NCBI GenBank assembly: GCA_018399355.1
Contig: JAGYOA010000002.1
Location: forward strand, 1 to 45,547
DNA length: 45,547 bases
Direction: 5' to 3'
From: Candidatus Woesearchaeota archaeon
Lineage (GTDB): Archaea > Nanobdellota > Nanobdellia > Woesearchaeales > CG1-02-33-12
The first letter of the stretch is position 1; each line of letters starts with the position of its first letter. The position numbers and the translations under genes are program-made. Below the pieces are notes generated by a model, which was given only the letters and a program-made list of their open reading frames with translations, ran no database searches and was not told where the DNA came from. Below are positions 3,145-42,134 of this stretch, in pieces.

Positions 3145-3180
3145 AAAAAAGAGATTGATTTTAGATATAAAAATCTTTTC

Positions 3181-5029: not shown

Positions 5030-5030
5030 A

Positions 5031-6662: not shown

Positions 6663-6665
6663 AAA

Positions 6666-8329: not shown

Positions 8330-8512
8330 ATGGCAAAAGCAATGAAAAAACATCATGAGGGATTCCCAACATTTGCAGTTATTCTTCTTGTGGTTGGAAT
8401 AATATGGCTTTTAAATGACTTAAAAATAATTGCTGTGAATATTCCATGGATACCAATGGTTTTGATAATTGTTGCAGTTGGGATGATATATAATAGAATT
8501 AGTAAAGAATAG
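8330..8512 (+). CDS. Small 2-TM membrane protein
   Basis: 60 aa, preceded by AGAGGTGG 6 nt upstream of the ATG, with two hydrophobic helices. Confidence 0.45.
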   Translation: MAKAMKKHHEGFPTFAVILLVVGIIWLLNDLKIIAVNIPWIPMVLIIVAVGMIYNRISKE

Positions 8513-8528
8513 GCATTTTTATCTAAAA

Positions 8529-8972
8529 ATGAAAAAAATAATGCCCCCAACATACTTTATTGTTTTGCTTGTATTTTCTATATTCTTTCATTCCTTTTTT
8601 CCTTTAATTAAATTTTCTTATTTTCCTTACAATTATCTTGGTGTTTTGCTGATAGTCTTTGGAATCTTTCTTAACATTAAGGCAGACTCAATGTTTACAA
8701 AAAGCAGGACAACTGTTAAGCCGCATTTGATGCCGAGTTTTTTTCATGTTTCAGGCCCATTTAAGATAAGCAGGCACCCTATGTACTTGGGAATGTTCTT
8801 GATTTTGTTGGGAGCCGCATTAATCATGAGTTCTCTTGTAACATTTATTTTCTCCTTTTTGTTTGTAATTCTGATGAAAATTCTTTTTATTCCAGAAGAA
8901 GAGAAAAACATGGAAAAGGCCTTCGGAAAAAAATATTTAGATTACAAGAAAAAGGTAAGGCAGTGGATATGA
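8529..8972 (+). CDS. Isoprenylcysteine carboxyl / phospholipid methyltransferase family membrane protein
   Basis: ISRHPMYLGMFLILLG and EEEKNMEKAFGKKYLDYKKKV are the conserved ICMT/PEMT C-terminal motifs. The protein has 4 TM. Confidence 0.7.
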   Translation: MKKIMPPTYFIVLLVFSIFFHSFFPLIKFSYFPYNYLGVLLIVFGIFLNIKADSMFTKSRTTVKPHLMPSFFHVSGPFKISRHPMYLGMFLILLGAALIMSSLVTFIFSFLFVILMKILFIPEEEKNMEKAFGKKYLDYKKKVRQWI

Positions 8973-9021
8973 TCTAAAGATATTCATAAAATATAAATAC
9001 TCATTATGAATTTTTTATTTT

Positions 9022-14835: not shown

Positions 14836-15966
14836 TCATTTAACTGGCAACTCTAAATCAAAATGAAAATCCTTTTCCTTAAATAGTTTAATGCATGAAT
14901 CAACAACCTTAGCGTCGTAAAGTATGCCCCTATTCATCTGCAGTTCATCTAGTGCTTTATCGACTCCAAGAGCGGCCCTGTAAGGCCTATGGCTTGACAT
15001 TGCCTCAACCACATCTGCAACAGAAATTATTTTTGCTTCAGCCAGAGTTTGGCTACCTTTTAATCCTCTAGGATATCCTGACCCGTCAATTCGTTCGTGA
15101 TGCTGGTAAACAATATCTGCAATAGGCCATGGAAAATCAATATTCTTAAGAATATCATAAGAAGCCTGAACATGAGTCTTTATCAATGCATATTCAATAT
15201 CTGAAAGTTTTCCTGGTTTAGAAAGGATTTCTGATGGAATATGTATTTTTCCTAAATCATGTACAATCGCAGCTGTCCTGACTAACCTAACTCGATCTGA
15301 GGAATACTCCATCTCTGAAGCTATTGCAGCCGCTAAATGTGCAACACGCCGTTGGTGCCTTCCATTATAGAGGTCTTTCGCTTCAACAGTTGAGGCAAGA
15401 GCATCTACTGTAGAATATAATGATTTTTCAAGATCCTTGTGGCTACGCTCAAGCATCTCTTCTGAATGTTTGCGTTTTGTGATATCCTTACAAAATCCAA
15501 GGAATTTATCGCCTGAAAGCTTTACAGCATCAACTGACATATAAAATTCATGACCATCTGCATGCCTAAAAAGATATTCTCCATTAACTTTTTTTTCTTT
15601 CGCAAGTTTGCCAAATTCGCTCAATGCTGCGTCTCTCGAACCCGGCGCAGTAACGTCCATAATAGAAAGCCCCAATAATTCTTTTTTTGTATACCCTAAA
15701 AGATTGCAAGCTGCTGGATTCACATCTATATATTCTCCCTGACTATTTGCTACAAAAATTCCATCAGGGGCATTTTCAACATAAGAACGGAATTTCTCTT
15801 CTGAGTCTAATAATCTTTGATCCACCTTTCTGCACTCGGCGATACCTCTCCTTTCCGAATCTTTCAGTCCCTTCCCTGACAGGATACGCGCAGATACTGA
15901 TTTTTGTATCTCTTCTCTTACGTCTGTAGGAATATCTTTCCTTTTCATAATCTCTTCTAAAATCAT
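14836..15966 (-). CDS. PAS-domain sensor fused to an HD-GYP phosphohydrolase domain
   Basis: The PAS segment reads EKFRSYVENAPDGIFVANSQGEYIDVNPAACNLLGYTKKELLG...CKDITKRK. The HD-GYP segment carries HDLGKIHIP and HHERIDGSGYPRGL. Confidence 0.85.
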   Translation of the reverse strand: MILEEIMKRKDIPTDVREEIQKSVSARILSGKGLKDSERRGIAECRKVDQRLLDSEEKFRSYVENAPDGIFVANSQGEYIDVNPAACNLLGYTKKELLGLSIMDVTAPGSRDAALSEFGKLAKEKKVNGEYLFRHADGHEFYMSVDAVKLSGDKFLGFCKDITKRKHSEEMLERSHKDLEKSLYSTVDALASTVEAKDLYNGRHQRRVAHLAAAIASEMEYSSDRVRLVRTAAIVHDLGKIHIPSEILSKPGKLSDIEYALIKTHVQASYDILKNIDFPWPIADIVYQHHERIDGSGYPRGLKGSQTLAEAKIISVADVVEAMSSHRPYRAALGVDKALDELQMNRGILYDAKVVDSCIKLFKEKDFHFDLELPVK

Positions 15967-16069
15967 TTGATTTCTCCAAAAATTTCTTTTCTTTTCTTTC
16001 CATCTTTTCTAATCTACTCTCATATACTGTATTATAAATTAATCTTAAATACTTTACACCCTAAAAAAC

Positions 16070-16282
16070 CTAATCTTTTGACTCCTGGCACTTATTTCTT
16101 TCATAGGTGCATTTTTCACTGCAAATGCTGCTTAAGATTCCTTCACCGCAATCATGCACGCAATCAGTATACTCGCGCTCGCATGGGTCAGTTTGCGAAA
16201 TAAAAGTACAGCCATTTACCAAGGCAAGTGATGTAAGTAAAATTACCAAACCCAAAGTTGTTATAATTGTTGAATATTTCAT
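16070..16282 (-). CDS. Small Cys-rich putative lipoprotein
   Basis: Signal peptide with a lipobox-like LVNGC. Seven further Cys follow in 45 aa. GGAGGA lies 6 nt upstream of the ATG. Confidence 0.5.
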   Translation of the reverse strand: MKYSTIITTLGLVILLTSLALVNGCTFISQTDPCEREYTDCVHDCGEGILSSICSEKCTYERNKCQESKD

Positions 16283-16340
16283 TCTTATCCTCCATTATAG
16301 TTATTTATACTTGCTTAATCGCATGTAAATGATGTTTAAT

Positions 16341-16601
16341 CTAGTTTCTTCTTCGCATCAATGTTGCTGCAAGGACTGTGCCTGCAGCCATTCCAACTCC
16401 AGCGGCAATCAATACTGACCTTTCAGGGTTTTTTTGGATGTAGCCATCAATATTTCCCTTCATTCTTGTTGCATTTTCCTTTAAGAGAGCTATTTTTTCC
16501 CTGCCACCTTCACTCATGCTTTCAGCCTTGTCCATTATATTATCAACTCCATTATGCGTTCTCTGCCTCATACTTGAGATTTTATTTGTTTCATTTTTCA
16601 T
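16341..16601 (-). CDS. DUF883 (ElaB/YqjD)-like tail-anchored protein
   Basis: 86 aa. A helical N-part is followed by IQKNPERSVLIAAGVGMAAGTVLAATLMRRRN, matching the conserved DUF883 C-terminal anchor pattern. Confidence 0.55.
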   Translation of the reverse strand: MKNETNKISSMRQRTHNGVDNIMDKAESMSEGGREKIALLKENATRMKGNIDGYIQKNPERSVLIAAGVGMAAGTVLAATLMRRRN

Positions 16602-16612
16602 TTTTCACCTTT

Positions 16613-17104
16613 CTACTCGGCATTTGTTTCTCCAGGAGATGCCGAACTAGTATCTTTCTTGTTCTCTTTATCCCCTTCGGAAAATCTATAATGCCTTGTA
16701 ATTTTTATTTTAGCTGTATCTTCAATCACATCCCCTTTTTTGTCAGGCAGTAGCCTCATGTTATGGATGTCCATTCCCTGGATCTCTATCTCAACTTTCC
16801 TGATACTTGAGTGATTTGGTGTTAATACAATCGTTTTATGCTCAGGTCCCCATTTTTTTTCGAATGTCCCAGATGTATAATTGAACTTAGACAAAGGAAT
16901 ATCTGGGAGAGTTGAAAATTCTGCCTTCAAATAGATTATGTAGTCTCCATAAGTCATTATGGGGATTGTACCTTTTCCTTCTGATTCGCTTTTCTTTTCA
17001 AATTCATTTGCCTCTTCTCTGGGTATACAGTACAAACTGTCCTCTTTGTTTATACAGCCCCTTATTTCCTTGAGCTTATTTTCATTTGATACATCGTTTT
17101 CCAT
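16613..17104 (-). CDS. Hypothetical protein (beta-rich, acidic/Ser-rich tail)
   Basis: 163-aa ORF with GGAGGCG 8 nt upstream of the ATG. No motif recognised. Confidence 0.5.
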   Translation of the reverse strand: MENDVSNENKLKEIRGCINKEDSLYCIPREEANEFEKKSESEGKGTIPIMTYGDYIIYLKAEFSTLPDIPLSKFNYTSGTFEKKWGPEHKTIVLTPNHSSIRKVEIEIQGMDIHNMRLLPDKKGDVIEDTAKIKITRHYRFSEGDKENKKDTSSASPGETNAE

Positions 17105-17135
17105 TTTTACACGCCTCCAACTTTCTTAAAAATAC

Positions 17136-17225
17136 CTAAAAAATCAACATTAAAACCACTATCACTACTACAACTAATCCAATAAATCCAAGTATTCCTC
17201 CTTTGTTGTTATTGATAATTTTCAT
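17136..17225 (-). CDS. 29-aa single-TM micropeptide
   Basis: Not in the ORF track (under 60 aa). Sequence MKIINNNKGGILGFIGLVVVVIVVLMLIF*, preceded by AAGGAGGTGA 5 nt upstream of the ATG. Confidence 0.45.
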   Translation of the reverse strand: MKIINNNKGGILGFIGLVVVVIVVLMLIF

Positions 17226-17271
17226 GGTTTTCACCTCCTTATCATTTAATTAAATTATTTTTTGCTCAACC

Positions 17272-17601
17272 TTAAAGTGGTCCGGTAATGGTTGGCAGCA
17301 CCCAACTGACAATTGATGCAAAAATCCATACAACAATAGCTACAACCAAAGCTTTCAGCCAGCCCATACTATATAGGGTGCCAAGAGCAATAAGCCAGGC
17401 TATGCCTCCAATCACTGAAGCTATCCAACCTACTCCCAGGAAATATGATACAGTCGCAAATATTATTGCACCGATAAGTGCAGCCATTATTGCTGTGCCA
17501 AATCCCTCCTTTTCTCCAAACAGTTTTGTAGCCAGATAGATAATAATTCCTGATATGACCAAACTTATCAAAAATCCTATTAATGCTTCTAAAAATGCCA
17601 T
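17272..17601 (-). CDS. 4-TM membrane protein, phage-holin-family-4 / YvlD (DUF360)-like
   Basis: 109 aa. The GFGTAIMAALIGAIIF and GWLKALVVAIVVWIFASIVSWVL segments resemble the twice-repeated G-F-W-x-A motif of DUF360 proteins. AAGGAGGTG lies upstream of the ATG. Confidence 0.45.
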   Translation of the reverse strand: MAFLEALIGFLISLVISGIIIYLATKLFGEKEGFGTAIMAALIGAIIFATVSYFLGVGWIASVIGGIAWLIALGTLYSMGWLKALVVAIVVWIFASIVSWVLPTITGPL

Positions 17602-17702
17602 AAATGAACACCTCCTTTCTTCAATTTTTTAATCAATCATTTTCTCACAATGGAAAAAAATATAATCCATTGTGAAGCAATAAATCTTCTACAATGAAAC
17701 AT

Positions 17703-17822
17703 TTAAGTTTTCATTATTTTCTTTCCAACAGGCCTGTTTTTTACCATTCCTTTGCCACCTGCACTCTTTGCAGCCCTTTTTTTAGCTGCAGTCATTCTTC
17801 CGCCTCTACTTTTTTTTGCCAT
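17703..17822 (-). CDS. 39-aa highly basic peptide (KGG-like stress-peptide resemblance)
   Basis: Not in the ORF track. Sequence MAKKSRGGRMTAAKKRAAKSAGGKGMVKNRPVGKKIMKT*, with GGAGGTG 6 nt upstream of the ATG. Confidence 0.35.
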   Translation of the reverse strand: MAKKSRGGRMTAAKKRAAKSAGGKGMVKNRPVGKKIMKT

Positions 17823-17876
17823 TAAAAACACCTCCGTTCTTAATTATTTACTCTTATTGATTAATTAATTTCTTAT

Positions 17877-18779
17877 TTAATCAAAACATTCAATTACCTT
17901 TTGTTCAGCATCATCAAATGATTTTGCTTTATTTTTTGCATCATCTAGTGCCCTACTCCATACAGCTTTTGATATTGTATGGTCTGCATTTGGATTGTTG
18001 GTAACATCATGGCACATGTTCTTAGTAAGAACATAGACTTTTTCATCTGCAAACTTGCTACTTACCATAGCTGAACGCATAGTCTCTATCTTGGATTTGC
18101 ATTCTGGCTTGTCTGCGAGAACCGCAATCTGTTCATAATACACAATCTTTTTCTCAGCAAACCTGTATAGTGCGTGATTAATATTGTTTTCCCGTTCTAC
18201 AAAACCAGAACATAACTGATATGTGTTTGAGTATACCATTTTGTAATCTTTCAAACCAGCAACTTCCTTCTTAACATCATTGATCAGTACAACAAAGTCT
18301 TTATGGAGCTGAACCTGCTTAGCATCATCACTCAGCTGCACAGCATCATACCTGACTTCCCTTGCTTCCCTTGCGTTGGTTAACTGCAAATTAAGAGAAT
18401 CTATCTCATCAGACTGTGCATCTATATCATCAGATTGTTTCTGCGTGGCCATATAACCCCAAACAGAGCCAGCCAGCAAAAGGACAATCAAACCAACAAT
18501 TACTACCAGTCCAATAGAATCTGCAGAATCTCTTTTTCTATTAACTTCTTCTGCCCTATTGGTGCTTCTTCGTCTCTGAGCATCCATCAATACATCATCT
18601 CTTCTGCCTTTTGCTGCAACCCTGTTATCTGCTTTCAATCCTTCATTCCTGCCTTTTGCTGCAACTCTTGCATCCGCTCTTTTGTCAGCTGCTTCTCTTC
18701 TATCAGCAACTCTTTCCCTTTCTGCTATCCTCTCGCCAGGATAATCATTCTGTTTATGATACTCATATTTTTTTGTCAT
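17877..18779 (-). CDS. Single-pass membrane protein with basic repeat-containing N-terminus and about 190-aa external domain
   Basis: ORF 17877..18794. The ATG at 18794 is part of the SD GGAGGTGG, so the ATG at 18779 (MTKKYEYH...) is preferred. It has a tandem RVAAKGR-containing 15-aa repeat, a TM (IGLVVIVGLIVLLLAGSVWGY), and no family recognised. Confidence 0.5.
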   Translation of the reverse strand: MTKKYEYHKQNDYPGERIAERERVADRREAADKRADARVAAKGRNEGLKADNRVAAKGRRDDVLMDAQRRRSTNRAEEVNRKRDSADSIGLVVIVGLIVLLLAGSVWGYMATQKQSDDIDAQSDEIDSLNLQLTNAREAREVRYDAVQLSDDAKQVQLHKDFVVLINDVKKEVAGLKDYKMVYSNTYQLCSGFVERENNINHALYRFAEKKIVYYEQIAVLADKPECKSKIETMRSAMVSSKFADEKVYVLTKNMCHDVTNNPNADHTISKAVWSRALDDAKNKAKSFDDAEQKVIECFD

Positions 18780-18802
18780 TAAAACCACCTCCATGGTTTT
18801 GT

Positions 18803-18997
18803 TTATTCTACTGCTATTTTTCTTTTTTTACTAGTAAATTCACGGTAATATTGACCATTGACTGATTTTTTACAATAAGGACATACGAGCGTTAGACCCA
18901 CTAATGCAGGGCTTGTTATTTTTTTGTGGCAATGATTACATATGATTGTTTCCATCTTGTTCTTGAGTATTTTTTTTGATTTTGCCATTTTTATCAT
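18803..18997 (-). CDS. Small zinc-ribbon protein
   Basis: CNHC-x17-CPYC arrangement in 64 aa. The true start could be the second Met (MAKSKK). Confidence 0.45.
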   Translation of the reverse strand: MIKMAKSKKILKNKMETIICNHCHKKITSPALVGLTLVCPYCKKSVNGQYYREFTSKKRKIAVE

Positions 18998-19018
18998 CTC
19001 TTTATTGTTATATCTTAA

Positions 19019-19177
19019 TTATTGTAATCTATGTAAGTGTGTCAGCCGGCTTTTGATATTTGCGCGCTCTGCCTGCTCTTTTATCATACGGTTTTCAATT
19101 TTTCCTAAGGCATGCTCCCAATAAATTATCCTTCTGGTTAATTCATTATTATTGATATCTTCCATGATATTTTCCAT
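19019..19177 (-). CDS. 52-aa helical micro-ORF
   Basis: Not in the ORF track. Sequence MENIMEDINNNELTRRIIYWEHALGKIENRMIKEQAERANIKSRLTHLHRLQ*, with AAGGGGGGAT upstream of the ATG. Confidence 0.3.
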   Translation of the reverse strand: MENIMEDINNNELTRRIIYWEHALGKIENRMIKEQAERANIKSRLTHLHRLQ

Positions 19178-19716
19178 TTAGATCCCCCCTTAACCTAAAC
19201 TATAGATGTTGTAGTAAAAGATTTATTCTTCATAAAAATGCAGCTTACGATCTTCTATTTCCAACATAGACATCAGATCAACTTCATCTGAAGAATATAT
19301 CTTATGCTTACTATCTTCAAAAAGCAATTTTATCACCCCTTTTCCCTTTTTTGTATTTAGCTATTTAACTGATATCTACATTGAAAACACTTAACATCCA
19401 CTCTACACACTAGGACGGACTGTCTAGCATATTTCTGGATTAGGTAGTATTAATGGGCCGATACAGTTATAGCCATTAAGACCATCAAGACTACTAAAAC
19501 CAAAATGGTTGACATTTTTTTTGTATATCTCATTTTTTGCCTCAGAGCCTTCTGCTTTAATATCAATTAATAATAACATAATTGGATATTTGATTACTGC
19601 CTATCAACTACTTCCCTCTCAACCTGTATATAGTATATTCTTGAAGTTCTTATGCCCTTTGTAGATATTTTAAAGAGATTAATAGAAATCGGTTGATAAT
19701 GTTAACCTGTTGATAA

Positions 19717-19739
19717 GCAGAAAAGAGGTTATACCTCTT
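19717..19739 (-). terminator. Hairpin plus T-rich tract downstream of the Lrp-family gene
   Basis: Perfect 7-bp stem aagaggt / acctctt (19723-19729 / 19733-19739) with a 3-nt loop. On the minus strand it is followed by TTCTGC, giving the run CTCTTTTCT. Confidence 0.3.
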
Positions 19740-26588: not shown

Positions 26589-29500
26589 ATGGCCCTAGAA
26601 GCACTGCTCACGGATATTCAGGCAATACCTGATAGAGGAGAGATTTTCCTTAGCTTCAGGGATGCCCACAAAAAAGAGCAGGTTGATTTGGGAAATCTTT
26701 ATTTAATAGATCAAAAACATATTTTTTTCACTGGAATTCTTGGAAAAAATAAAGGGCCAAAGCTCCAATCAAAAAAATTTCCTAGAGAATGGGATAAGCT
26801 TCAAAAACAGATTCAAAACATCCAGAAAGATGATGAATCATTCTATAATTTTTGTGATGTAATGAAAAATATAAGGTCAGCTTTTGAAAAAAATAATTTA
26901 AGCATGATTGATTTTTTAGACTATGAAAGGATTAAGGATTCTTATTGGTTCATATACCAGCTTTACGCTGATATGAGGCTAAAAAATATTCTTCCTGATG
27001 ATTTTATAAAGGAGGATTATACCCAATGGGCAAGGCGAAGATTGACATGTCCCGCAAAGTTTGTTGTGCTTGATGATTATGTTGTCAAGGCATTTAAATC
27101 CAGGAATAAAATAAAAGACAAGCTTATTAATTTAAGGGAAGATCTTGATTCTCTTTCAGCTAAAGGCTATGCAACAAGAAGGATAAATGTTCTTGATGAT
27201 ATTTTTGATAAAAATCCACACATAAAAGAAAAAGAACTTTTTAATCTCAAAGAGAATATTGAATGTTTGAAAAATCTAGATTATAATTTAATAAAAAAAA
27301 GAAAAGAAATAAATGATGAGATCGAGAATGCAAACAAGCTTCTTAATGATGATGTAAAGATAGTTTATTCAAAGGCTGAAAAAAATAAAAAACCTGAACT
27401 GAGAATAGAGAAAAAAGAGGATATTTTCCTTAAAAAATCAAGGGTGCCGTCTCTTGATGAGATTGTTAATTTTAAATGGGCTTTTATTGATATTGAAATC
27501 CCTCATTTCAAGAGAAGAAATGCTGGAATAACTTGGATAGGAGCCAAGTATTATGATGGTGAAAAAATCCTGTCTAAAATCCATACAATTCATAATGTTA
27601 CTCCTGATTCCTCTAAGGGTTACCAAATTATAAAATATAAAAGCATTCAGGAAATGATTGAAAGCTTTACAAAAGAAATGAATGATTTTAATCCAGATAT
27701 AGTTTCAACTTATAACACAAGATTTGACCTCATAAAACTAAGGGAAACAATTTCCGGGTTTTTTATTGGAGAACAAAGAAGAGATTCTGCAGGCCAGGAC
27801 ACAAAAACAAATCCAATATACAAGGTAACCACTAAGTTTTTTGAAAGAATAGACATAATTAACAGGATGGTCATTGATTTTTTCAGATGGCAAAAGATTG
27901 CAAGGGCTTATGATATAAACGCAAAGCTTGAAATGGCTGCAGGTTTCAAAAAAAGCATAAGCTACGATCTTCTTGCAAAACTTGAAGATTATTGTATAAG
28001 GGGTGAAAAAAGAGGAGAGAAGGCATCAGGCATAATTTCAAAATATCTTGTAAATGATGTTGATTCTTTGTCTTCATTGCTTAATCTTAATGAGTTTAGG
28101 AAGAATATGAAAGATGTTCTTTGGATGTCTGAAAAATTTAACATAAGTATAGAGAGATTACTTCACATGCCGAATGTAATAAATGAGTTTCAGGAAGAGG
28201 GATATTTTAAACAGATGGGGATAACAAGAAAACATATTTTTCCTTATATCAAAAACAAACAGACAAATGAAATGGAAAGAAAATGTATAGATTACTTTAC
28301 AAAAAAGATTGTGGCAAAATCAGTAAAAAGAGAGGGTATAAAAGGAGTTTCAGAAGATGTTTACAAAGTATTTATCCCTATTGGCGATTTTTTCAGAGGT
28401 CCTTTATCAGAACGTTCAAAAAAGATCGCTGAATTTTTTGAATACAAAGATAGTTTAGCTGAAGACAAACAAAGAGTCTTCTTTCTTGAGCAGTATGCAA
28501 ATGCATTCAGTAGGTGGATTGCTGTGGACTATTCAAGGTTCTTAAAAGATAAAGACAAATTTGACAAAACGATTTCAAAAAACAAAACAAAATTCAGCGA
28601 GATAAGAGAAATCTATTACAATCTGCAGAAAAGCATTTCCAAAAAGCAAGATATTAAACTTTCAAAAAAATTCAATAACGGGAATATTACCATTAAAGAT
28701 ATTGAGGAATCAATTGATAAAAACATTAATTCATTTATAGAAGAAAAAAGCATTAAAACAGAAGAACTTTCAAAAATTATCAAATTTTATTCAAATACAA
28801 GAAAAAAACAAAGCCACTTTTTTGGAAACTACCAGAGAGGACCATCAGAAATTGAAAAAATAATTAATGAAAGATTCAACAGAATAAATGATTTCATTGA
28901 AAAAAATAATTTTGAAGTTGTTGCAAAAGAGGGAAACTATCTTTATTTGAAAGGCAATAAATCAGCACTTCAGAGAAAAGGTGCCCCTTTAGTTATGGTT
29001 GATGAGATAAAAAAACTTTACAATTCAGACAAGGTTTACTATGAAAAGAATGGATTTTTCTCAAATATACAATTCAAAGACCATCCAGGTTATCATCTTT
29101 CCATGTTCGAGATGAACACATACAAGGTGATGATTGAAAATCTTATGGAAAACAATGAAGAAAAGGCAAAAAAAGCGTATAATCTTGCTTCAAATATAGC
29201 CTATATAAAAAGGCTTGAGAAAAACAATTTCTTTTTTGAAAACAAGTCAAAACAAAGATATTCGGCATTTGTTAAGAATAGTGAATACAAAAACGGGAAA
29301 ATCTATTTTATGTTAAAGAAAGATTACAACCTAATTGAAACAAATTCTGAAATTCATTATGACTTTAATAAAAACATGCTTTATTTTTTTGATGAAAGAG
29401 ATAAAGACCCAGTTAAGGTTTATGTTATGAATGAACAGAGAGTTTCAATGCTTAACCTAGACTTTGATAAATATCAGGAAAGATTAGCTAAGAGAGGAAA

Positions 29501-29594
29501 TGATATAATAAAAGGTGCTGAAAAAGAAAAAAAGAAGCCAAAAACAAAACAATTATCATTTAACATTTGTCCAACAAAAGATATTTATAAATAA
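26589..29594 (+). CDS. Family-B DNA polymerase-like protein: intact 3'-5' exonuclease motifs, degenerate polymerase motifs
   Basis: ExoI is WAFIDIEI (D301/E303). ExoII is TYNTRFDLIKL (N376/D380). ExoIII is KYLVNDVDSL (Y486/D490). The spacings (about 75 and about 105 aa) are as in PolB. Candidate motif A is IPIGDFFRGPLS (D600), motif B is RKKQSHFFGNY (738-748), motif C is VVAKEGNYLYL (777-787, DTD replaced by EGN), and KxY is KKLY (808-811). Confidence 0.55.
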   Translation: MALEALLTDIQAIPDRGEIFLSFRDAHKKEQVDLGNLYLIDQKHIFFTGILGKNKGPKLQSKKFPREWDKLQKQIQNIQKDDESFYNFCDVMKNIRSAFEKNNLSMIDFLDYERIKDSYWFIYQLYADMRLKNILPDDFIKEDYTQWARRRLTCPAKFVVLDDYVVKAFKSRNKIKDKLINLREDLDSLSAKGYATRRINVLDDIFDKNPHIKEKELFNLKENIECLKNLDYNLIKKRKEINDEIENANKLLNDDVKIVYSKAEKNKKPELRIEKKEDIFLKKSRVPSLDEIVNFKWAFIDIEIPHFKRRNAGITWIGAKYYDGEKILSKIHTIHNVTPDSSKGYQIIKYKSIQEMIESFTKEMNDFNPDIVSTYNTRFDLIKLRETISGFFIGEQRRDSAGQDTKTNPIYKVTTKFFERIDIINRMVIDFFRWQKIARAYDINAKLEMAAGFKKSISYDLLAKLEDYCIRGEKRGEKASGIISKYLVNDVDSLSSLLNLNEFRKNMKDVLWMSEKFNISIERLLHMPNVINEFQEEGYFKQMGITRKHIFPYIKNKQTNEMERKCIDYFTKKIVAKSVKREGIKGVSEDVYKVFIPIGDFFRGPLSERSKKIAEFFEYKDSLAEDKQRVFFLEQYANAFSRWIAVDYSRFLKDKDKFDKTISKNKTKFSEIREIYYNLQKSISKKQDIKLSKKFNNGNITIKDIEESIDKNINSFIEEKSIKTEELSKIIKFYSNTRKKQSHFFGNYQRGPSEIEKIINERFNRINDFIEKNNFEVVAKEGNYLYLKGNKSALQRKGAPLVMVDEIKKLYNSDKVYYEKNGFFSNIQFKDHPGYHLSMFEMNTYKVMIENLMENNEEKAKKAYNLASNIAYIKRLEKNNFFFENKSKQRYSAFVKNSEYKNGKIYFMLKKDYNLIETNSEIHYDFNKNMLYFFDERDKDPVKVYVMNEQRVSMLNLDFDKYQERLAKRGNDIIKGAEKEKKKPKTKQLSFNICPTKDIYK

Positions 29595-29612: not shown

Positions 29613-29930
29613 ATGAAAAATACATCAAAAAGACTTGGAGACAGCGTATCAAATCACTGTGTTTATGATTACAAAAAAAGAGTTAAGGATGGTCCTGAAA
29701 AAAGAAATGCTACTGCCAATGATTTGAGAAAAATTATCAGAAATGCCTTAAATGAAACTAAATCTAAACCTGTCCTTGATTTCGGCAATACTCAAATATA
29801 CAATGTAAAATTTAGAAAAATGGGTAATCCTTATTATTTAATAACAATAATGGATATATCAAAAGGAAGAGTCGTTGAAAGTATATACACTCAGGAAATG
29901 TATGAGGACAAATATAAGAATTACTTGTAA
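29613..29930 (+). CDS. Hypothetical small protein
   Basis: 105-aa ORF 18 nt downstream of the PolB-like gene on the same strand. No motif recognised securely. Confidence 0.4.
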   Translation: MKNTSKRLGDSVSNHCVYDYKKRVKDGPEKRNATANDLRKIIRNALNETKSKPVLDFGNTQIYNVKFRKMGNPYYLITIMDISKGRVVESIYTQEMYEDKYKNYL

Positions 29931-29952: not shown

Positions 29953-30414
29953 TTATTTCTTTGTTGATTTGGCCTTTGTTTTAGTCTTAGTGGATTTTTT
30001 GACTGTGCTCTTGGCCTTAGGGACAGCTTTTTTCTTTGGCTTTGTTTCTGTTTTTTTCTCTGTTTTTGATTTAGGGGTTTCTTTTTCTTTTAAAGTTTCT
30101 TTCTTTGCTGTTTCTTTTGGTTCTGGCTTTTCTTTTTTAGCTGCCTGAGCTGTTTTTGCTTTCTTGCTTCTTTTCTGTTTTTCCTTGACTTCAATACCCT
30201 CTTTCTTAAGCTCCTTTAAAACATCATCATGTGAAATTCCTTTCTTAATCTTTAAAACCTTATCCAATGGCTCTAAGTGCTTTACATTGCACTTTCTCCT
30301 TCTTGTCTGGCCATCAATCATAACATAAGAATCATCAACTATATCAACAACAACGCATTTCAATCCAGCGTCCCTTCCGGCTATCTTAACACATAATCTT
30401 CCTAATTCAAACAT
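29953..30414 (-). CDS. rpl14e: 50S ribosomal protein L14e (eL14) with about 75-aa Lys-rich C-terminal tail
   Basis: The KOW-type N-domain MFELGRLCVKIAGRDAGLKCVVVDIVDD...RRRKCNVKHLEP is followed by the tail KKAKTAQAAKKEKPEPKE...KTKTKAKSTKK. Confidence 0.85.
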   Translation of the reverse strand: MFELGRLCVKIAGRDAGLKCVVVDIVDDSYVMIDGQTRRRKCNVKHLEPLDKVLKIKKGISHDDVLKELKKEGIEVKEKQKRSKKAKTAQAAKKEKPEPKETAKKETLKEKETPKSKTEKKTETKPKKKAVPKAKSTVKKSTKTKTKAKSTKK

Positions 30415-33422: not shown

Positions 33423-33875
33423 TTAAATCATCCTTTTTATGAGGTCATTAATCTTGTCTTTTCTGTATCCAAGAGCACCTCCATTTGAAAAAGGCACCTT
33501 TATTCCCTTTCTTTCAAAACCTTTTCTTGGAGGGCTTAGTCTGAAATACTTTTTGTATTTTTTTCCGTTAATTGAAATGAACTTGTTATATTTTATTTTA
33601 TTTTTTGAGTCTGCTTCTCTTCCTTTATATTCTTCCCCTCTTTTATCTGCAAGCATTTTTAATGTTTCCTGGTTTATTTCTCCCCATGTTACATAGTCTT
33701 TTACTTTTCTGACCATATTAAGTATACTGCTGTCAACAACAGCGCAATAATTATTGTGATAAAGTCCAAGCATATCAAGAGTATCCTTTATGCTTTTTTC
33801 AACTCCAGTTATTCCTCTTATTCTTATAACTGCAAGCTGTTTTTTCTCGCTTTCCTTTTTTTTATCTTCGCTCAT
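33423..33875 (-). CDS. rpl30: 50S ribosomal protein L30 (uL30)
   Basis: LAVIRIRGITGVEKSIKDTLDMLGL, and operon position. Confidence 0.9.
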   Translation of the reverse strand: MSEDKKKESEKKQLAVIRIRGITGVEKSIKDTLDMLGLYHNNYCAVVDSSILNMVRKVKDYVTWGEINQETLKMLADKRGEEYKGREADSKNKIKYNKFISINGKKYKKYFRLSPPRKGFERKGIKVPFSNGGALGYRKDKINDLIKRMI

Positions 33876-34765
33876 TTTTTAGTTTCCTTCTTTTCTTCTT
33901 GATTTTCCTTTTTTTTAGGAGACTCTTTTTTATCTTCGTTTTCCTGTTTCTCAACATTCTTTTTTATGGTTGTTATCATATCATCTTCTGATGGCTCTTC
34001 AATATCATCTTCATTTTTCAATTCTTCTTGTTTTATTATTGAGCCTTCAACTATTCCAAGATTTTTGTAATGCCTTTCATGTATTCTTGTTGAGCTTAAC
34101 TTTTTCATTGCATCAAAACAAGCTACTATAAGATTGGTCTTGACCTTTGTCTGGCCTTTTGTTTTAGACCATACATCTCTTATTCCTGCGATCTCCAGCA
34201 TTTTCTGGCATTCCTTTTCAGTGCAAAGACCTTTCCCTTTTGGGGCAGGCATAATCTTTATTACTGCCGAGCCGCATTTTGATTCAACAGCAAAAGGTAT
34301 TGAATGAGCCTCTCCACAGCTGCACTGCCATGAGCCACAGCCGCGCCTTATTTTTATTATATTGAGCTTTGCATTTCTCATTGCTTTTTCCCTTGCAGGA
34401 ACAGTTTCCCTGCTTTTTCCATATCCAATTCCAACGTGGCCGTTCTCATCTCCAACAACTGCAAAAGCAGCAAAATGAGGCTTGTTTCCCTCGCTGGTTT
34501 TCTTCTGCGTCTGCCTGAACACCCTTCTCTGGCCTCCGCCGAACTTTCCTTTTGACTGTCCTATAAGCAAAAGCTCTGTTTTAAGGTTTGGCAGAAGAAT
34601 ATCAACTATTTCAGGCTCAAGTATAGTAAGCCCGTTATCAAGTATCTCGTCTATGTTTTTTATTTCCTGGGCCTTTACCTTCCTTCCTACTTCTGTTTTT
34701 GGATTCCATTCCAGAGCGTCAATAGGTTTCTGATTTTCCTGAACCTTTTTTTCTTTTTTAGCCAT
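33872..34765 (-). CDS. rps5: 30S ribosomal protein S5 (uS5) with acidic/Lys-rich C-terminal tail
   Basis: FAAFAVVGDENGHVGIGYGKSRETVPAREKA and operon position. About 55 extra C-terminal residues (EELKNEDDIEEPSEDD...KKETKK). Confidence 0.9.
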   Translation of the reverse strand: MAKKEKKVQENQKPIDALEWNPKTEVGRKVKAQEIKNIDEILDNGLTILEPEIVDILLPNLKTELLLIGQSKGKFGGGQRRVFRQTQKKTSEGNKPHFAAFAVVGDENGHVGIGYGKSRETVPAREKAMRNAKLNIIKIRRGCGSWQCSCGEAHSIPFAVESKCGSAVIKIMPAPKGKGLCTEKECQKMLEIAGIRDVWSKTKGQTKVKTNLIVACFDAMKKLSSTRIHERHYKNLGIVEGSIIKQEELKNEDDIEEPSEDDMITTIKKNVEKQENEDKKESPKKKENQEEKKETKK

Positions 34766-35798: not shown

Positions 35799-36344
35799 TT
35801 ACTCATTTCTTTTTGTAAGTATCTTGTCTTTCTCTTTTTTCTCTTCTTCTTTCTTTTCTTCGTCTGTTTTTTTAACCTTTTTTTCTATTGATTCTTTATC
35901 TTTCTTTTCTTTCTCTATTTGCTTTTTCTTTTCTTGTTTTTCTTTTTCAGCCTTATTTTTCTCTTGTTTTTTCTCTTTGATTTTCTCTTCTGATTTTTTT
36001 ATGAATTCATTGACATCTTTTATGTTTGAAACCTTTATTCCTTTTTTGGATATTTCCTTTAAGATTTCAATCTTCTTTTTAAGTCCAATATTTTTTGATA
36101 TAATTGCGCACTGTTTTTTTGAATCTATTCTTTCTATGTCTTTTAAGCAATCAACTAAAACAGGCATAAGGCCGTTTTTTAATGTAAACTTTTCTTTTAT
36201 TGCATTTCCATAACCTATTGAAACACCTTTTGGATGGCCTTTCTTCTGTAGCCTTAGCTTTGAATGCAAGCCTTTTGGCCTTCTCCATTTTTCGCCAAGC
36301 TTCACTTTCTTGTGCGAATCCTGTCTTATGAATTTTTTTGTCAT
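35799..36344 (-). CDS. rpl32e: 50S ribosomal protein L32e (eL32) with about 65-aa Lys/Glu-rich C-terminal tail
   Basis: FIRQDSHKKVKLGEKWRRPKGLHSKLRL, and operon position. The tail is EEKIKEKKQEKNKAEKEKQEKKK... Confidence 0.9.
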   Translation of the reverse strand: MTKKFIRQDSHKKVKLGEKWRRPKGLHSKLRLQKKGHPKGVSIGYGNAIKEKFTLKNGLMPVLVDCLKDIERIDSKKQCAIISKNIGLKKKIEILKEISKKGIKVSNIKDVNEFIKKSEEKIKEKKQEKNKAEKEKQEKKKQIEKEKKDKESIEKKVKKTDEEKKEEEKKEKDKILTKRNE

Positions 36345-40668: not shown

Positions 40669-41502
40669 TTATTGTTTTTCTGCCTTTTCTTCTTTTTTGT
40701 CTGTTTTTTTAGATGATTTCTTGGCTGCCTTTTTCTTTGGTTTTTTCTCTGCCTTTTTTTCTGGTTCTGCTTCAGGAGTTTCTTTTTCCTTTTGCTCCTT
40801 TTTTTCTTGTTCTTTGTCTGGCTTATCTGCCTCATCCTGTTTTTTAACACTTTCCTGTTCACTGTCTTTTGTATCTTCTTCAATTATTTCTTCCTGTTTT
40901 TGAAGCTCATCAATCAGCTGGATATTATCAGGTAACTTGATGTCAGGAGGCATTATGCTTACCTTAACTCCGGCAACGCCTGTCTTAAGCACAGCCTTTA
41001 CGTTTGCCCTATGAACTCCTGTTATTGCTATATCCCCACATTTTTTTAAATATCCAGAGTAAACACGCCATGACTTTGCTCTCGCGCCAGGTATTTTGCC
41101 TGAAATTACAATTTCAATACCAAGCGCTCCTGAGTTCATGACTTCTTCCATGGTTTTGTGCATTATTCCTTTAAATCTTGATGTTCCATACCTTTCAAGA
41201 GACTCTGATATTGAGTTTGCGACAACCTGAGCATCAATATTTGTGTTTTCAATCTCGCTGATTTCTATCTGCGGATTTTCAAGGTCAAAATTATTTTTTA
41301 AATCTCTTGTAAGTTTTGTTATATTCTGGCCTTTTCTTCCAACTACAAGACCTGGCCTTGCAGCGTATATTATTATTTTTTCTCCAAGAGGAGTTCTTTG
41401 CAGCTTGGTGTGGCTGTATCCTGCGCCCCTTACATTCTCTGCTATCATCTCCTGGATTCTGTGCTCTTTCTTTTTTTGTGATATAAATTGTCTTTCAATC
41501 AT
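40669..41502 (-). CDS. rps3: 30S ribosomal protein S3 (uS3) with about 75-aa Lys/Glu-rich C-terminal tail
   Basis: KH domain (TPLGEKIIIYAARPGLVVGRKGQNI) and C-domain (GIEIVISGK). The tail is QKQEEIIEEDTKDSEQ...KKTDKKEEKAEKQ. Confidence 0.9.
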   Translation of the reverse strand: MIERQFISQKKKEHRIQEMIAENVRGAGYSHTKLQRTPLGEKIIIYAARPGLVVGRKGQNITKLTRDLKNNFDLENPQIEISEIENTNIDAQVVANSISESLERYGTSRFKGIMHKTMEEVMNSGALGIEIVISGKIPGARAKSWRVYSGYLKKCGDIAITGVHRANVKAVLKTGVAGVKVSIMPPDIKLPDNIQLIDELQKQEEIIEEDTKDSEQESVKKQDEADKPDKEQEKKEQKEKETPEAEPEKKAEKKPKKKAAKKSSKKTDKKEEKAEKQ

Positions 41503-42134
41503 TTTTTATCAGCTTGTTTTGTTTTTTCTTTTTCAGTTTCTTTTGATTCACTAGGTTTTTTATTTTCTTGTGTCTTTTTTTCTTGAACTGGTTGTTTTTT
41601 TGATTCAGATTCATTAATTTTATTTGTTTCTTGCTTTTTTTCTTTTTGTTTTATTGGTTTTGCTTTTTCTTTAGCTGAGGATTGTTTCTTTGGTTTTGCC
41701 TTTTTTTCTTTTTCCTCTACTGCAACCTCAACGCTTGTTCTTTTCATTGATACACGGGTTTGTCTTCCATACTTCCATGTTCTTGGGCCTTTCTTTGCAC
41801 ATATATGTATTATAACAAGGCTTGATGTTTCGAGGGCCTTTTGCTGTGCATTTGATTCAACAAGTTTAAGCAAATTAAGTATTTCTTTTGATGCCTTTAC
41901 AGGGTATTTTCCAGGGCCCATTCCATGCTTATGGCCTGCTCCCTCACTGAACCTGTCAAACTTAACAGGCTTTTTCATATTAGCTACATCCTCAAGGAAG
42001 GCCTTGGCTTCCTGAAGGTTTTTTCCTCTGAGCATATTGCATATTTCAACTGCATGCTTTGTGGATATGGGCAATAGCACTCCAACTGCCTTTGCCATGT
42101 GCTCATTTGTTTTTATTGAATATTTGTACGGCAT
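41499..42134 (-). CDS. rpl22: 50S ribosomal protein L22 (uL22) with about 70-aa Lys-rich C-terminal tail
   Basis: AKAVGVLLPISTKHAVEICNMLRGKNLQEAKAFLEDV, followed by the tail EEKEKKAKPKKQSSAKEKAKP...KTKQADKK. Confidence 0.9.
   Translation of the reverse strand: MPYKYSIKTNEHMAKAVGVLLPISTKHAVEICNMLRGKNLQEAKAFLEDVANMKKPVKFDRFSEGAGHKHGMGPGKYPVKASKEILNLLKLVESNAQQKALETSSLVIIHICAKKGPRTWKYGRQTRVSMKRTSVEVAVEEKEKKAKPKKQSSAKEKAKPIKQKEKKQETNKINESESKKQPVQEKKTQENKKPSESKETEKEKTKQADKK

What the first reader, a model, noticed from the sequence alone, without database searches (positions are those of the whole stretch)
26589..29594. 1001-aa PolB-like protein: exonuclease motifs intact, polymerase catalytic motifs apparently degenerate, and an expanded N-terminal region
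The three DEDDy exonuclease motifs are clear and correctly spaced: FIDIEI at aa 299-304, YNTRFD at 375-380, YLVND at 486-490. Downstream, the motif order A-B-C-KxY can be aligned by eye to archaeal PolB, but with the key residues replaced. Motif A is IGDFFRGPLS instead of LDFxSLYPS. Motif B is RKKQSHFFG instead of KxxxNSxYG. Motif C is AKEGNYLYL instead of YxDTDGLYA, so both metal-binding Asp residues are replaced by E and N. About 295 aa precede ExoI, against about 130-140 in canonical archaeal PolB, and this region includes a K/E/N-rich probable coiled-coil insert (aa ~170-290). It could be a proofreading-only or structural PolB paralogue (inactivated PolB families are known in archaea), or a very divergent replicase of a reduced genome. 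A 105-aa unknown ORF follows 18 nt downstream and is probably co-transcribed.
Basis: partly seen in the sequence, partly recalled or inferred. Interest (0 to 1): 0.7.

Follow-up and report, generated by a model that had tools for sequence, protein, structure and literature searches.

The report
PolB homologue: exonuclease kept, polymerase lost
This gene from a tiny DPANN archaeon encodes a protein with the full shape of a family B DNA polymerase that keeps its proofreading exonuclease site and a clamp-binding tail but has lost the residues needed to make DNA, so it probably works as a clamp-tethered DNA-end trimmer, a form of this enzyme family I found no description of.

Summary
A confident AlphaFold2 model (pLDDT 83.6) matches family B polymerases over the whole chain. 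Profile-profile alignment to canonical PolB is significant (97.7%, E 1.7e-12) from ExoI to the strand before motif A.

The protein belongs to a large unannotated family: 280 clusters at 50% identity, found in Woesearchaeota/Nanoarchaeota-type MAGs and absent from viral contigs. In 74 diverse members the only invariant residues are exonuclease ones (D301, E303, D430, Y486, D490). The positions of the two catalytic polymerase Asp residues hold P597/I598 and N783, and those columns vary. Motif B is degraded, and no member hits Pfam PF00136. A C-terminal Q-x-x-[LF] peptide, enriched about sixfold over shuffled tails, looks like a PCNA-binding PIP box.

Best reading (confidence 0.58): a polymerase-dead, exonuclease-active PolB that uses its dead palm, fingers and thumb to hold DNA and is tethered to PCNA. 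Loss of polymerase activity is inferred, not shown; PolB2 was once wrongly predicted to be inactive. I could not test whether the same genomes carry another replicase. The 105-aa downstream ORF is not a conserved partner. Novelty: new variant of a known kind.

The parts
26589..29594 (+). Whole gene, 1001 aa plus stop: PolB-fold protein
   Evidence: ORF list. AF2 model pLDDT 83.6, pTM 0.84. Foldseek top 50 PDB hits are all PolB.
26589..27074 (+). N-terminal domain (aa 1-162), beta-rich with a helical insertion at aa 67-101
   Evidence: Secondary structure of the model. Moderately conserved: 22 of 162 columns >=80% in A1.
27075..27353 (+). Lineage-specific helical insert (aa 163-255), K/E/N/D-rich, four long helices
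   Evidence: Helices 163-189, 192-208, 214-223, 232-251. Least conserved region apart from the tail. Partly absent in some relatives.
27453..28223 (+). DEDDy 3'-5' exonuclease domain (aa 289-545), the most constrained part of the protein
   Evidence: hhalign to canonical PolB: probability 97.7%, E 1.7e-12. PF03104 hits in 10 of 25 and 6 of 31 relatives. 24 of 257 columns >=80% conserved in 74 sequences.
27483..27503 (+). ExoI, FIDIEIP (aa 299-305); D301 and E303
   Evidence: D301 and E303 in 74 of 74 sequences. Aligned to Pfu D141/E143.
27711..27728 (+). ExoII, YNTRFD (aa 375-380); N376 and D380
   Evidence: N376 in 72 of 74, D380 in 71 of 74. Aligned to Pfu N210/D215.
28044..28058 (+). ExoIII, YLVND (aa 486-490); Y486 and D490
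   Evidence: Both in 74 of 74. Aligned to Pfu Y311/D315.
28344..28409 (+). Degenerate motif A region (aa 586-607): palm strand GVSEDVYKVFIP, then IGDFFRGPLS
   Evidence: G586 in 71 of 74. Pfu D405 aligns to I598 or P597. D600 is D or E in only 25 of 74.
28464..28838 (+). Expanded fingers-like helical region (aa 626-750); ends in degenerate motif B, RKKQSHFFGNY (aa 738-748)
   Evidence: Helices 627-664 to 724-748. Forced hhalign gives R738/K488, S742/N492, G746/G496. Only 1 of 125 columns >=80% conserved.
28911..28955 (+). Degenerate motif C hairpin, FEVVAKEGNYLYLKG (aa 775-789)
   Evidence: Strands 776-781 and 784-788. E781/D541, N783/D543 and Y786/Y546 in all hhalign runs. E781 is E or D in 40 of 74; N783 is D or E in 11 of 74.
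29094..29522 (+). Thumb-like domain (aa 836-978)
   Evidence: Profile match to Tgo/Pfu thumb start at residues 625-675. Collinear forced alignment. Full-length Foldseek alignments.
29550..29567 (+). C-terminal clamp-binding (PIP-like) peptide QLSFNI (aa 988-993) in a disordered Lys-rich tail (aa 979-1001)
   Evidence: pLDDT below 50 for 979-1001. Motif in the last 20 aa of 33 of 74 members, against 5.3 +/- 2.1 in shuffled tails. Aligns with the Pfu PIP box in the forced hhalign.
29613..29930 (+). Downstream 105-aa ORF; a neighbour, not a conserved partner
   Evidence: 51% identical copy in L002/L003 only; no alignable counterpart in L001 or L004. No Pfam, NCBIfam or PADLOC hit.

Best explanation
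The gene encodes a highly divergent family B DNA polymerase homologue found in DPANN archaea of the Woesearchaeota/Nanoarchaeota type. It keeps the complete PolB architecture (N-terminal, exonuclease, palm, fingers and thumb domains), a fully intact DEDDy 3'-5' exonuclease centre, and a C-terminal PIP-like peptide. It has lost both metal-binding aspartates of the polymerase site (motif A and the second Asp of motif C) and most of the nucleotide-binding motif B. The most likely mechanism has three steps. The tail docks on PCNA. The catalytically dead palm, fingers and thumb hold a primer-template or nicked duplex as a canonical PolB does in editing mode. The 3' end is then fed to the exonuclease site and trimmed. 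The protein would therefore be a stand-alone, clamp-tethered editing or 3'-end-processing exonuclease acting alongside the real replicase or repair polymerase. Shown here: the fold, the homology, the residue conservation pattern, the tail-motif enrichment, and the chromosomal housekeeping context. Inferred: exonuclease activity, lack of polymerase activity, PCNA binding, and the cellular role.
For: Full-length PolB fold: AF2 model pLDDT 83.6; the top 50 PDB Foldseek hits are all PolBs at probability 1.00; viral hits are likewise all PolBs. Sequence homology: the family profile reaches Thermococcales PolB in the Exo region and at the thumb start; hhalign gives 97.7%, E 1.7e-12 for aa 295-593 against Pfu 135-403. 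Exonuclease site: D301, E303, Y486 and D490 are in 74 of 74 sequences, N376 in 72 and D380 in 71. Polymerase site: D405 aligns to P597/I598 and D543 to N783; the columns drift, and only 1 of 74 sequences has acidic residues at all three candidate positions. No member hits PF00136, while PF03104 is hit repeatedly. In a control alignment spanning Pfu, Methanomethylovorans, Halorientalis and E. coli Pol II, D405, K488 and D543 are invariant. Constraint is concentrated in the Exo domain: 24 of 257 columns >=80% conserved, against 1 of 125 in the fingers. Tail motif: 33 of 74 members against 5.3 +/- 2.1 in shuffles; the tail is disordered and aligns to the Pfu PIP box. Context: always chromosomal and housekeeping, near SMC/ScpA, MutS-MutL, a UvrD-like helicase, Lhr or Topo VI-B in several loci; nothing in viral contigs, PADLOC or PHROGs. 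The model superposes best on editing-mode or apo PolB structures (TMt 0.53-0.55) rather than polymerising ternary complexes (0.42-0.47) (weak evidence). Precedent: PolX proteins with a dead polymerase site and an active PHP exonuclease (PMC12926913).
Against: No activity was measured. Archaeal PolB2 was also predicted to be inactive and proved to be a working translesion polymerase (PMC8764526, PMC7544198). In the window's near clade several palm acidic residues are fairly well kept: D600 is D or E in 13 of 16, E781 is E or D in 16 of 16, and D626 and D805 are acidic in 23 and 22 of 25. A remodelled metal site therefore cannot be excluded, and I had no model coordinates to measure distances. 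The motif B/C and PIP alignments come from a forced, low-probability hhalign (26-30%), supported only by secondary structure and agreement between runs. Only 45% of members show the tail motif. I could not check whether the same genomes encode PolD or another PolB.
Confidence: 0.58

Rival explanations
1. It is still an active DNA polymerase, possibly the PolB of these reduced genomes. Its remodelled catalytic centre would be built from non-canonical carboxylates (D600 in the first turn after the motif A strand, E781 at the first motif C position, D805, D626), by analogy with PolB2/Dpo2 and primer-independent PolB.
For: The palm, fingers and thumb fold is retained with high confidence and remains under purifying selection, with conserved blocks such as FFLEQY, GNY, EGxYLYxxG, YYxKxGF and FEM. 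In the near clade D600, E781, D626 and D805 are mostly acidic. A basic residue is common at the K488-equivalent column. PolB2 and piPolB are precedents for wrong 'inactive' predictions (PMC7544198, PMC8764526).
Against: Across 74 members no palm carboxylate is invariant: D600 is acidic in 34%, E781 in 54%, N783 in 15%, D805 in 64%. Every exonuclease catalytic residue is 96-100% conserved. Both direct metal ligands (D405 and D543 equivalents) are replaced. The motif B Asn and Tyr are lost. No PF00136 signal appears in any member.
Confidence: 0.17
2. It is a purely structural, non-catalytic PolB relic, a replisome scaffold like the C-terminal half of eukaryotic Pol epsilon, with neither polymerase nor exonuclease activity.
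For: The polymerase motifs are degenerate. Inactivated PolB modules used as scaffolds are known (PMC2669801, PMC7544198). The gene sits in housekeeping neighbourhoods.
Against: All five DEDDy catalytic residues and the conserved D430 (Pfu D259 equivalent) are invariant or nearly so across a family whose members fall to 16-20% identity with the window protein, and the Exo domain is the most constrained region. Known scaffold relics have lost these residues.
Confidence: 0.08
3. It is an active exonuclease with a role outside replication proofreading. Options include excision in bacterial-type mismatch repair (MutS-MutL), 3'-flap or damaged-end removal in repair or recombination, and action on RNA or RNA-DNA hybrids.
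For: In L017 the gene is convergent with and adjacent to a MutL-MutS pair. In L014 it abuts a UvrD-like helicase with an RQC domain. SMC/ScpA, Lhr and Topo VI-B are nearby in other loci. The QxxLF form of the tail motif matches the clamp-binding motif that repair proteins use (my own knowledge; QxxLF beta-clamp motif cited in PMC12926913).
Against: Each association appears in one or a few of 23 loci and none is conserved across the family. Much of the synteny (aIF5B, r-proteins, prefoldin, FtsY) looks like conserved housekeeping gene order. This is a refinement of the best explanation rather than a true alternative.
Confidence: 0.12

Closest known systems
Archaeal PolB3-type polymerases (Pfu, Tgo, KOD, 9 deg N; Pyrobaculum calidifontis 5mdn)
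   Same: Same overall fold; these are the best structural and profile hits. Same DEDDy ExoI/II/III motifs, with a 'YN' ExoII signature. The thumb is collinear. The C-terminal Q-x-x-L peptide sits where the Pfu PIP box lies.
   Different: The motif A Asp, the motif C DTD and the motif B KxxxNSxYG are not retained. About 160 extra N-terminal residues form helical inserts, and the fingers region is expanded. There is no PF00136 signal.
Archaeal PolB2 / Dpo2 (group B2), the classic 'inactivated' archaeal PolB
   Same: A divergent archaeal PolB with substitutions in canonical catalytic motifs, long annotated as inactive.
   Different: The pattern is the opposite. B2 has lost ExoI and ExoIII, keeps one motif C Asp plus a D(K/R) motif, and is an active translesion polymerase (PMC7544198, PMC8764526). 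Here the exonuclease site is intact and the polymerase ligands are lost.
C-terminal half of eukaryotic Pol epsilon; poxvirus F12; helicase-fused inactivated pPolB of polinton-like elements
   Same: PolB folds kept after loss of polymerase catalysis and reused for another role (PMC2669801, PMC4304020, PMC5499653).
   Different: I recall that the exonuclease site is also degenerate in those relics and that they act as scaffolds or in morphogenesis; only the Pol epsilon case was seen in text read here. In this family the exonuclease centre is the best conserved part.
Prokaryotic PolX with an inactivated polymerase site and an active PHP 3'-5' exonuclease
   Same: The same functional logic: the polymerase scaffold is retained while selection maintains the exonuclease (PMC12926913).
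   Different: An unrelated fold (family X with a PHP domain), mainly bacterial. It is an analogy, not homology.
Group B7 (Pol II-like) PolB of Woesearchaeota/Pacearchaeota, and E. coli Pol II
   Same: The same host lineages (PMC7544198). E. coli Pol II is among the top structural hits.
   Different: The PolII-like clade has a 'GWN' ExoII signature (PMC7544198); bacterial Pol II (G1) keeps both active sites (PMC12926913). This family has '(S/A)YN' and no polymerase motifs, and scores lower against Pol II (9.9 bits) than against Thermococcales PolB (24 bits).

Membership tests
Family B DNA polymerase superfamily (fold and homology) | Overall N-terminal / exonuclease / palm / fingers / thumb architecture | tested here: met
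   AF2 model pLDDT 83.6. The top 50 PDB Foldseek hits are all PolBs, probability 1.00, TM (target) up to 0.55, aligned over full-length targets.
Family B DNA polymerase superfamily (fold and homology) | DEDDy exonuclease motifs ExoI (DxE), ExoII (Nx2-3FD) and ExoIII (Yx3D) | tested here: met
   D301/E303, N376/D380 and Y486/D490 are aligned to Pfu D141/E143, N210/D215 and Y311/D315. They are 96-100% conserved in 74 sequences.
Catalytically competent family B DNA polymerase | Motif A, Dx2SLYPS, with a metal-binding Asp (Pfu D405) | tested here: not met
   D405 aligns to I598 or P597. The nearest acidic residue, D600, is D or E in 25 of 74.
Catalytically competent family B DNA polymerase | Motif C, YxDTD, with a metal-binding second Asp (Pfu D543) | tested here: not met
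   In the hairpin 776-781/784-788, E781 aligns to D541 and N783 to D543. N783 is D or E in 11 of 74.
Catalytically competent family B DNA polymerase | Motif B, Kx3NSxYG, in the fingers | tested here: not met
   RKKQSHFFG gives R738/K488, S742/N492, F745/Y495 and G746/G496 in a low-probability alignment. A basic residue is common at 738-740, but the Asn and Tyr are not kept.
Catalytically competent family B DNA polymerase | KxY motif in the palm-thumb junction | tested here: inconclusive
   DKVYYEK (aa 814-820) is a candidate and Y818 is well conserved (63 of 74), but the two hhalign runs place it differently.
Catalytically competent family B DNA polymerase | Match to the Pfam DNA_pol_B polymerase-domain model (PF00136) | tested here: not met
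   No hit for the window protein even at E <= 10, nor in 25 + 31 relatives.
Archaeal PolB with PCNA-interacting C-terminus | C-terminal PIP box (Qxx[LIM]xx[FWY][FWYL]) | tested here: inconclusive
   A shortened variant, Qxx[LF](F or x[LFIV]), is enriched in the last 20 aa: 33 of 74 against 5.3 in shuffles. It lies in a disordered tail and aligns to the Pfu PIP box. Binding to PCNA was not testable.
PolB2 / B2 'inactivated' group | ExoI not conserved, ExoIII missing, one motif C Asp plus a D(K/R) motif (PMC7544198) | tested here: not met
   ExoI and ExoIII are invariant here. The second motif C Asp is absent.
B7 / PolII-like clade | 'GWN' ExoII signature and intact polymerase motifs (PMC7544198, PMC12926913) | tested here: not met
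   ExoII reads (S/A)(Y/F/H)N. Polymerase motifs are absent.
Pol epsilon C-terminal-type fully inactivated PolB | Both the exonuclease and polymerase catalytic residues are lost | tested here: not met
   The exonuclease residues are invariant.
Replicative or repair partner set | Another complete DNA polymerase (PolD or a canonical PolB) in the same genome | not testable with these tools
   None in the 45.5-kb window or in 417 kb of related loci. Only literature evidence exists for PolD in Pacearchaeota (PMC8204110) and B7 in Woese/Pacearchaeota (PMC7544198).

The most novel reading that the evidence does not exclude
An ancestral archaeal (B3-like) replicative PolB was converted, across a whole DPANN radiation, into a dedicated PCNA-tethered 3'-5' exonuclease. 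It would proofread or process 3' ends in trans for other polymerases (PolD, or the horizontally acquired Pol II-like B7). As far as I could find, this would be the first natural 'exonuclease-only' family B polymerase. Thumb-less relatives may represent further steps of the same transformation.
Probability: 0.4. Interest if true: 0.75.

Novelty: new variant of a known kind. Interest (0 to 1): 0.62.

Why it matters
Inactivated family B polymerases are known, but in the cases I could find the exonuclease dies first or along with the polymerase (PolB2, the Pol epsilon C-terminal half, poxvirus F12). This family shows the reverse. Selection keeps the proofreading centre and a clamp-binding tail, while the polymerase ligands drift, across at least 280 sequence clusters of ultra-small archaea with reduced genomes.

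If confirmed, three things follow. It would define a new functional class of PolB, an editing-only enzyme acting in trans. It would bear on how DPANN archaea maintain fidelity with a minimal replisome. It would also give family B a natural counterpart to the polymerase-dead, exonuclease-active PolX proteins.

It is also a practical annotation gap. Every public copy is labelled 'hypothetical protein', and Pfam and NCBIfam miss the window protein entirely. PolB censuses built on polymerase-domain models are therefore likely to miss this family, so the PolB content of Woesearchaeota/Nanoarchaeota may be misjudged.

Tried and rejected
- **Single-sequence searches found nothing.** Pfam, NCBIfam and PDB searches with the window protein alone gave no PolB hit. 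Only the family profile reached PolB.
- **The Pfu homologue search was poor value.** The 120 hits listed (of 1210) were all Thermococcales at >=72% identity. I added diversity from plasmid records and E. coli Pol II instead.
- **The standard profile alignment stops before motif A**. Motifs B, C, the thumb and the PIP box could be mapped only by forcing the C-terminal halves together, at 26-30% probability. I treat that mapping as supportive, not decisive.
- **FFDERDKD (aa 933-940) as an alternative catalytic register: rejected.** It lies in predicted thumb strands and is not conserved.
- **The 105-aa ORF as a functional partner: rejected.** It is conserved only in the nearest relatives.
- **Mobile-element or defence origin: rejected.** There are no relatives in IMG/VR and no PADLOC or PHROGs hit.
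- **Membership of B7 or B2: rejected** on their defining motifs.
- **Co-occurrence with PolD or a canonical PolB could not be established.** No polymerase lies within +/-10 kb in 23 loci. The Kazlauskas supplements held as text contained no Woesearchaeota entries.
- **Model coordinates are not exposed,** so I could not measure carboxylate-to-metal-site distances.
Full report
**1. The observation**

The ORF at 26589..29594 on the + strand starts with ATG and encodes 1001 aa.

| Motif | Sequence | Residues |
|---|---|---|
| ExoI | FIDIEI | 299-304 |
| ExoII | YNTRFD | 375-380 |
| ExoIII | YLVND | 486-490 |
| Motif A-like | IGDFFRGPLS | 598-607 |
| Motif B-like | RKKQSHFFG | 738-746 |
| Motif C-like | AKEGNYLYL | 779-787 |
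| Alternative register | FFDERDKD | 933-940 |

The 105-aa ORF at 29613..29930 follows after exactly 18 nt. The window is a low-GC (about 32%) chromosome fragment of a DPANN-type archaeon. It carries PheRS alpha and beta, an Exo III-like nuclease, L14e, L34e, SecY and the large ribosomal protein operon, and no other polymerase gene.

**2. Sequence searches with the protein alone fail; the family profile succeeds**

Pfam, NCBIfam and PDB searches with the single sequence gave no PolB hit, even at E <= 10. So the PolB reading initially rested only on motifs matched by eye.

A homologue search found 28 full-length relatives of about 900-1020 aa at 24-72% identity. The few that carry a name are labelled 'hypothetical protein' from Nanoarchaeota or Woesearchaeota MAGs. 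An exhaustive profile search found 280 clusters at 50% identity with E <= 1e-3, of which 142 have E <= 1e-30. This is a large, unannotated family.

Reference-genome loci all come from Woesearchaeota/Nanoarchaeota-type MAGs. Several carry a placeholder 'Methanosarcinales' label, and one is a complete 774-kb chromosome, OZ246410.1. No relative was found in IMG/VR viral contigs, and there were no PADLOC or PHROGs hits.

**3. It is a PolB over its whole length**

- The family profile hits Thermococcales PolB (E 6e-5) in the ExoII region and, weakly but in the same order, at the start of the thumb, Tgo 625-675.
- PF03104, the PolB exonuclease model, is hit by 10 of 25 close relatives and 6 of 31 distant ones. 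PF00136, the polymerase-domain model, is never hit.
- An AlphaFold2 model built on the family alignment is confident: pLDDT 83.6, pTM 0.84. It is weak only at residues 397-421 and in the tail, 979-1001.
- The 50 best PDB Foldseek matches are all family B polymerases at probability 1.00. They include Pyrobaculum 5mdn, E. coli Pol II, Tgo, KOD, 9 deg N, Pol delta, HSV and ASFV. The alignments span the entire ~750-residue targets, with TM (target) up to 0.55. The viral library returns only viral PolBs.
- A 74-member family profile was compared with a control PolB profile made of Thermococcales, Methanomethylovorans, Halorientalis and E. coli Pol II sequences. hhalign gave 97.7% probability, E 1.7e-12, for aa 295-593 against Pfu 135-403.

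The refutation condition 'the fold is not PolB beyond the exonuclease domain' is therefore not met.

**4. The exonuclease site is intact and under the strongest constraint**

Across 74 members whose identity to the window protein falls to 16-20%, the only invariant residues are D301 and E303 (ExoI), D430 (aligned to the conserved Pfu D259), and Y486 and D490 (ExoIII). N376 is present in 72 of 74 and D380 in 71 of 74. These residues align in register with Pfu D141/E143, N210/D215 and Y311/D315.

The Exo domain holds 24 of 257 columns at >=80% conservation. The fingers hold 1 of 125, the palm 5 of 136 and the thumb 4 of 143.

**5. The polymerase site is degenerate**

| Pfu residue | Role | Aligned residue here | Conservation in 74 sequences |
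|---|---|---|---|
| D405 | motif A metal ligand | I598 or P597 | hydrophobic or Pro |
| (A408) | none | D600, nearest acidic residue | acidic in 25 |
| D541 | motif C, first Asp | E781 | acidic in 40 |
| D543 | motif C, second Asp, metal ligand | N783 | acidic in 11 |
| Y546 | after motif C | Y786 | Y in 67 |
| K488 / N492 / Y495 / G496 | motif B | R738 / S742 / F745 / G746 | Asn and Tyr not kept |

Details behind the table:

- The predicted hairpin (strands 776-781 and 784-788) follows a long helix, as motif C does in Pfu. Every hhalign run gives the same E781, N783 and Y786 pairings.
- Only 1 of 74 sequences has acidic residues at all three candidate positions.
- In the control alignment, D405, K488, G496 and D543 are invariant even between Pfu and E. 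coli Pol II.
- FFDERDKD lies in predicted thumb strands and is not conserved.

The second refutation condition, conserved catalytic Asp residues in another register, is therefore also not met.

Caveat: the standard profile alignment ends just before motif A. The motif B, motif C and thumb mapping comes from forcing the C-terminal halves together, at 26-30% probability. It is supported by secondary structure and by agreement between runs, but it is not independent proof.

**6.

After the thumb comes a disordered, Lys-rich tail (pLDDT below 50, residues 979-1001) that contains QLSFNI at 988-993. Many relatives end in Q-x-x-L-F or Q-L-x-L-x-L, for example RQMELF, QLELF, QISLF, QLSLL and QLVLDL.

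The pattern Q..[LIMF](F|.[LFIV]) occurs in the last 20 residues of 33 of 74 members. Shuffled tails give 5.3 +/- 2.1, with a maximum of 13 in 1000 shuffles, and only 3.2% of internal 20-aa windows carry it. In the forced alignment, KTKQLSF lies on the Pfu PIP box, KTRQVGLTSWL. I read this as a shortened PIP-type PCNA-binding peptide. Binding itself was not tested.

**7. Genomic context**

In 23 loci the gene always sits among chromosomal housekeeping genes: r-proteins, aaRS, aIF5B, prefoldin and FtsY/SRP54. Chromosome-maintenance or repair genes are often nearby:

- ScpA in L001, L004 and L006
- SMC and an intein-containing Lhr helicase in L009
- a UvrD-like helicase with an RQC domain, convergent and adjacent, in L014
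- a MutL-MutS pair, convergent and adjacent, in L017
- Topo VI-B in L020

None of these associations is conserved across the family, so they are only suggestive.

No canonical PolB lies within the 417 kb fetched. The 105-aa ORF has a 51% identical counterpart only in the nearest relatives (L002/L003, where the gap is 133 nt) and none in distant ones. It is a lineage-specific neighbour.

**8. Mechanism**

The most economical reading is a polymerase-dead, exonuclease-active PolB. The tail docks on PCNA, the dead palm, fingers and thumb hold duplex DNA, and the 3' end is delivered to the exonuclease site. The polymerase half still carries conserved non-catalytic blocks (FFLEQY, GNY, EGxYLYxxG, YYxKxGF, FEM), which fits a retained DNA-binding role.

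The model superposes best on editing-mode or apo PolB structures (4flt, 4flv, 2xhb, 5mdn; TMt 0.53-0.55) and less well on ternary complexes (0.42-0.47). This is weak evidence.

What it edits for is unknown. PolD genes are reported in Pacearchaeota (PMC8204110), and Pol II-like B7 PolBs in Woese/Pacearchaeota (PMC7544198). Whether they co-occur with this family could not be tested here.

**9. Rivals**

- **A remodelled but active polymerase.** This cannot be excluded. PolB2/Dpo2 was wrongly predicted to be inactive (PMC8764526). In the window's near clade D600, E781, D626 and D805 are mostly acidic. Against it, none of these is conserved family-wide, and both direct metal ligands are replaced.
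- **A purely structural relic.** The invariant exonuclease site contradicts this.
- **A repair-specific role** (mismatch repair excision, 3'-end cleaning). This refines the main reading rather than opposing it.

**10. Comparison with known systems, and novelty**

The closest relatives by sequence and structure are archaeal B3-type PolBs. The family fails the defining features of three known groups:

- B2, which has lost ExoI and ExoIII and is an active translesion polymerase
- B7/PolII-like, which has a GWN ExoII motif and intact polymerase motifs
- Pol epsilon C-terminal-type relics, in which both sites are dead

The nearest functional analogue is PolX with a dead polymerase site and an active PHP exonuclease (PMC12926913). 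I found no description of an Exo-active, Pol-dead PolB group in the surveys I read (PMC7544198, PMC4104785 abstract, PMC12926913), although the literature search was limited.

I therefore rate it a new variant of a known kind, with interest 0.62.

Noticed in passing
Related proteins P0122, P0124, P0133, P0140, P0144, P0149, P0150, P0155, P0156, P0161, P0164, P0166 (alignment A6): A distant subclade of the family ends about 50-80 residues after the motif C-like hairpin, so it has no thumb domain. It has its own conserved 'QxYxPLEE(W/H)L' at the motif A position and '(K/R)GDY(L/I)F' at the hairpin, which puts an Asp in the column of Pfu D543. Many members end in '...LF'. hhalign to canonical PolB extends through motifs A and B (72%, E 3.5e-5). 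It may be a transitional or differently specialised PolB derivative.
   Followed up: partly
L017:3553-9025 (Woesearchaeota MAG JAHWHG010000020.1): A bacterial-type MutL (3553-5268) and MutS (6515-9025) pair lies convergent with and directly adjacent to the family gene (700-3210). Seen in one locus only. This would be relevant if the exonuclease serves mismatch excision.
   Followed up: partly
L014:4473-6365 (-); L009:6490-9894 (-) and 15555-19733 (+): Other neighbours of family genes are a UvrD-like helicase with an N-terminal RQC domain (L014), an SMC protein (L009), and an Lhr-type helicase interrupted by an intein with a LAGLIDADG domain (L009).
   Followed up: no
L021:119-9124 (+), 402-kb Woesearchaeota contig JASMHM010000001.1: A giant ORF of about 3000 aa ends immediately upstream of the family gene. 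I did not annotate it.
   Followed up: no
window 29953-30414, 33872-34765, 35799-36344, 40669-41502, 41499-42134 (all -): Several ribosomal proteins in this window, identified by eye as L14e, S5, L32e, S3 and L22, carry long Lys/Glu-rich C-terminal extensions of roughly 50-90 residues.
   Followed up: no
Plasmid hits H6, H7, H12, H24 (Deinococcus and cyanobacterial plasmids): Bacterial plasmid genes annotated '3'-5' exonuclease' or 'RNase H-like domain protein' match Pfu PolB across the N-terminal, Exo and part of the palm region, between residues ~18 and ~670, but not the C-terminal part. They may be independent PolB-derived truncated proteins.
   Followed up: no
window 27780-27850 (aa 397-421 of the protein): The window protein and its closest relative P0002 carry a 9-residue insertion (QRRDSAGQD / NKKSSAYKE) just before the highly conserved 'PLYKVTTKFFERIGI' block of the Exo domain. 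That block corresponds to the beta-hairpin region of canonical PolB. This is the only internal stretch with pLDDT below 50.
   Followed up: no
window 16361-17104: Overlapping ORFs lie on opposite strands (130 aa on +, 163 aa on -). The + strand ORF has a low-complexity, Phe/Leu/Cys-rich translation and is probably spurious.
   Followed up: no
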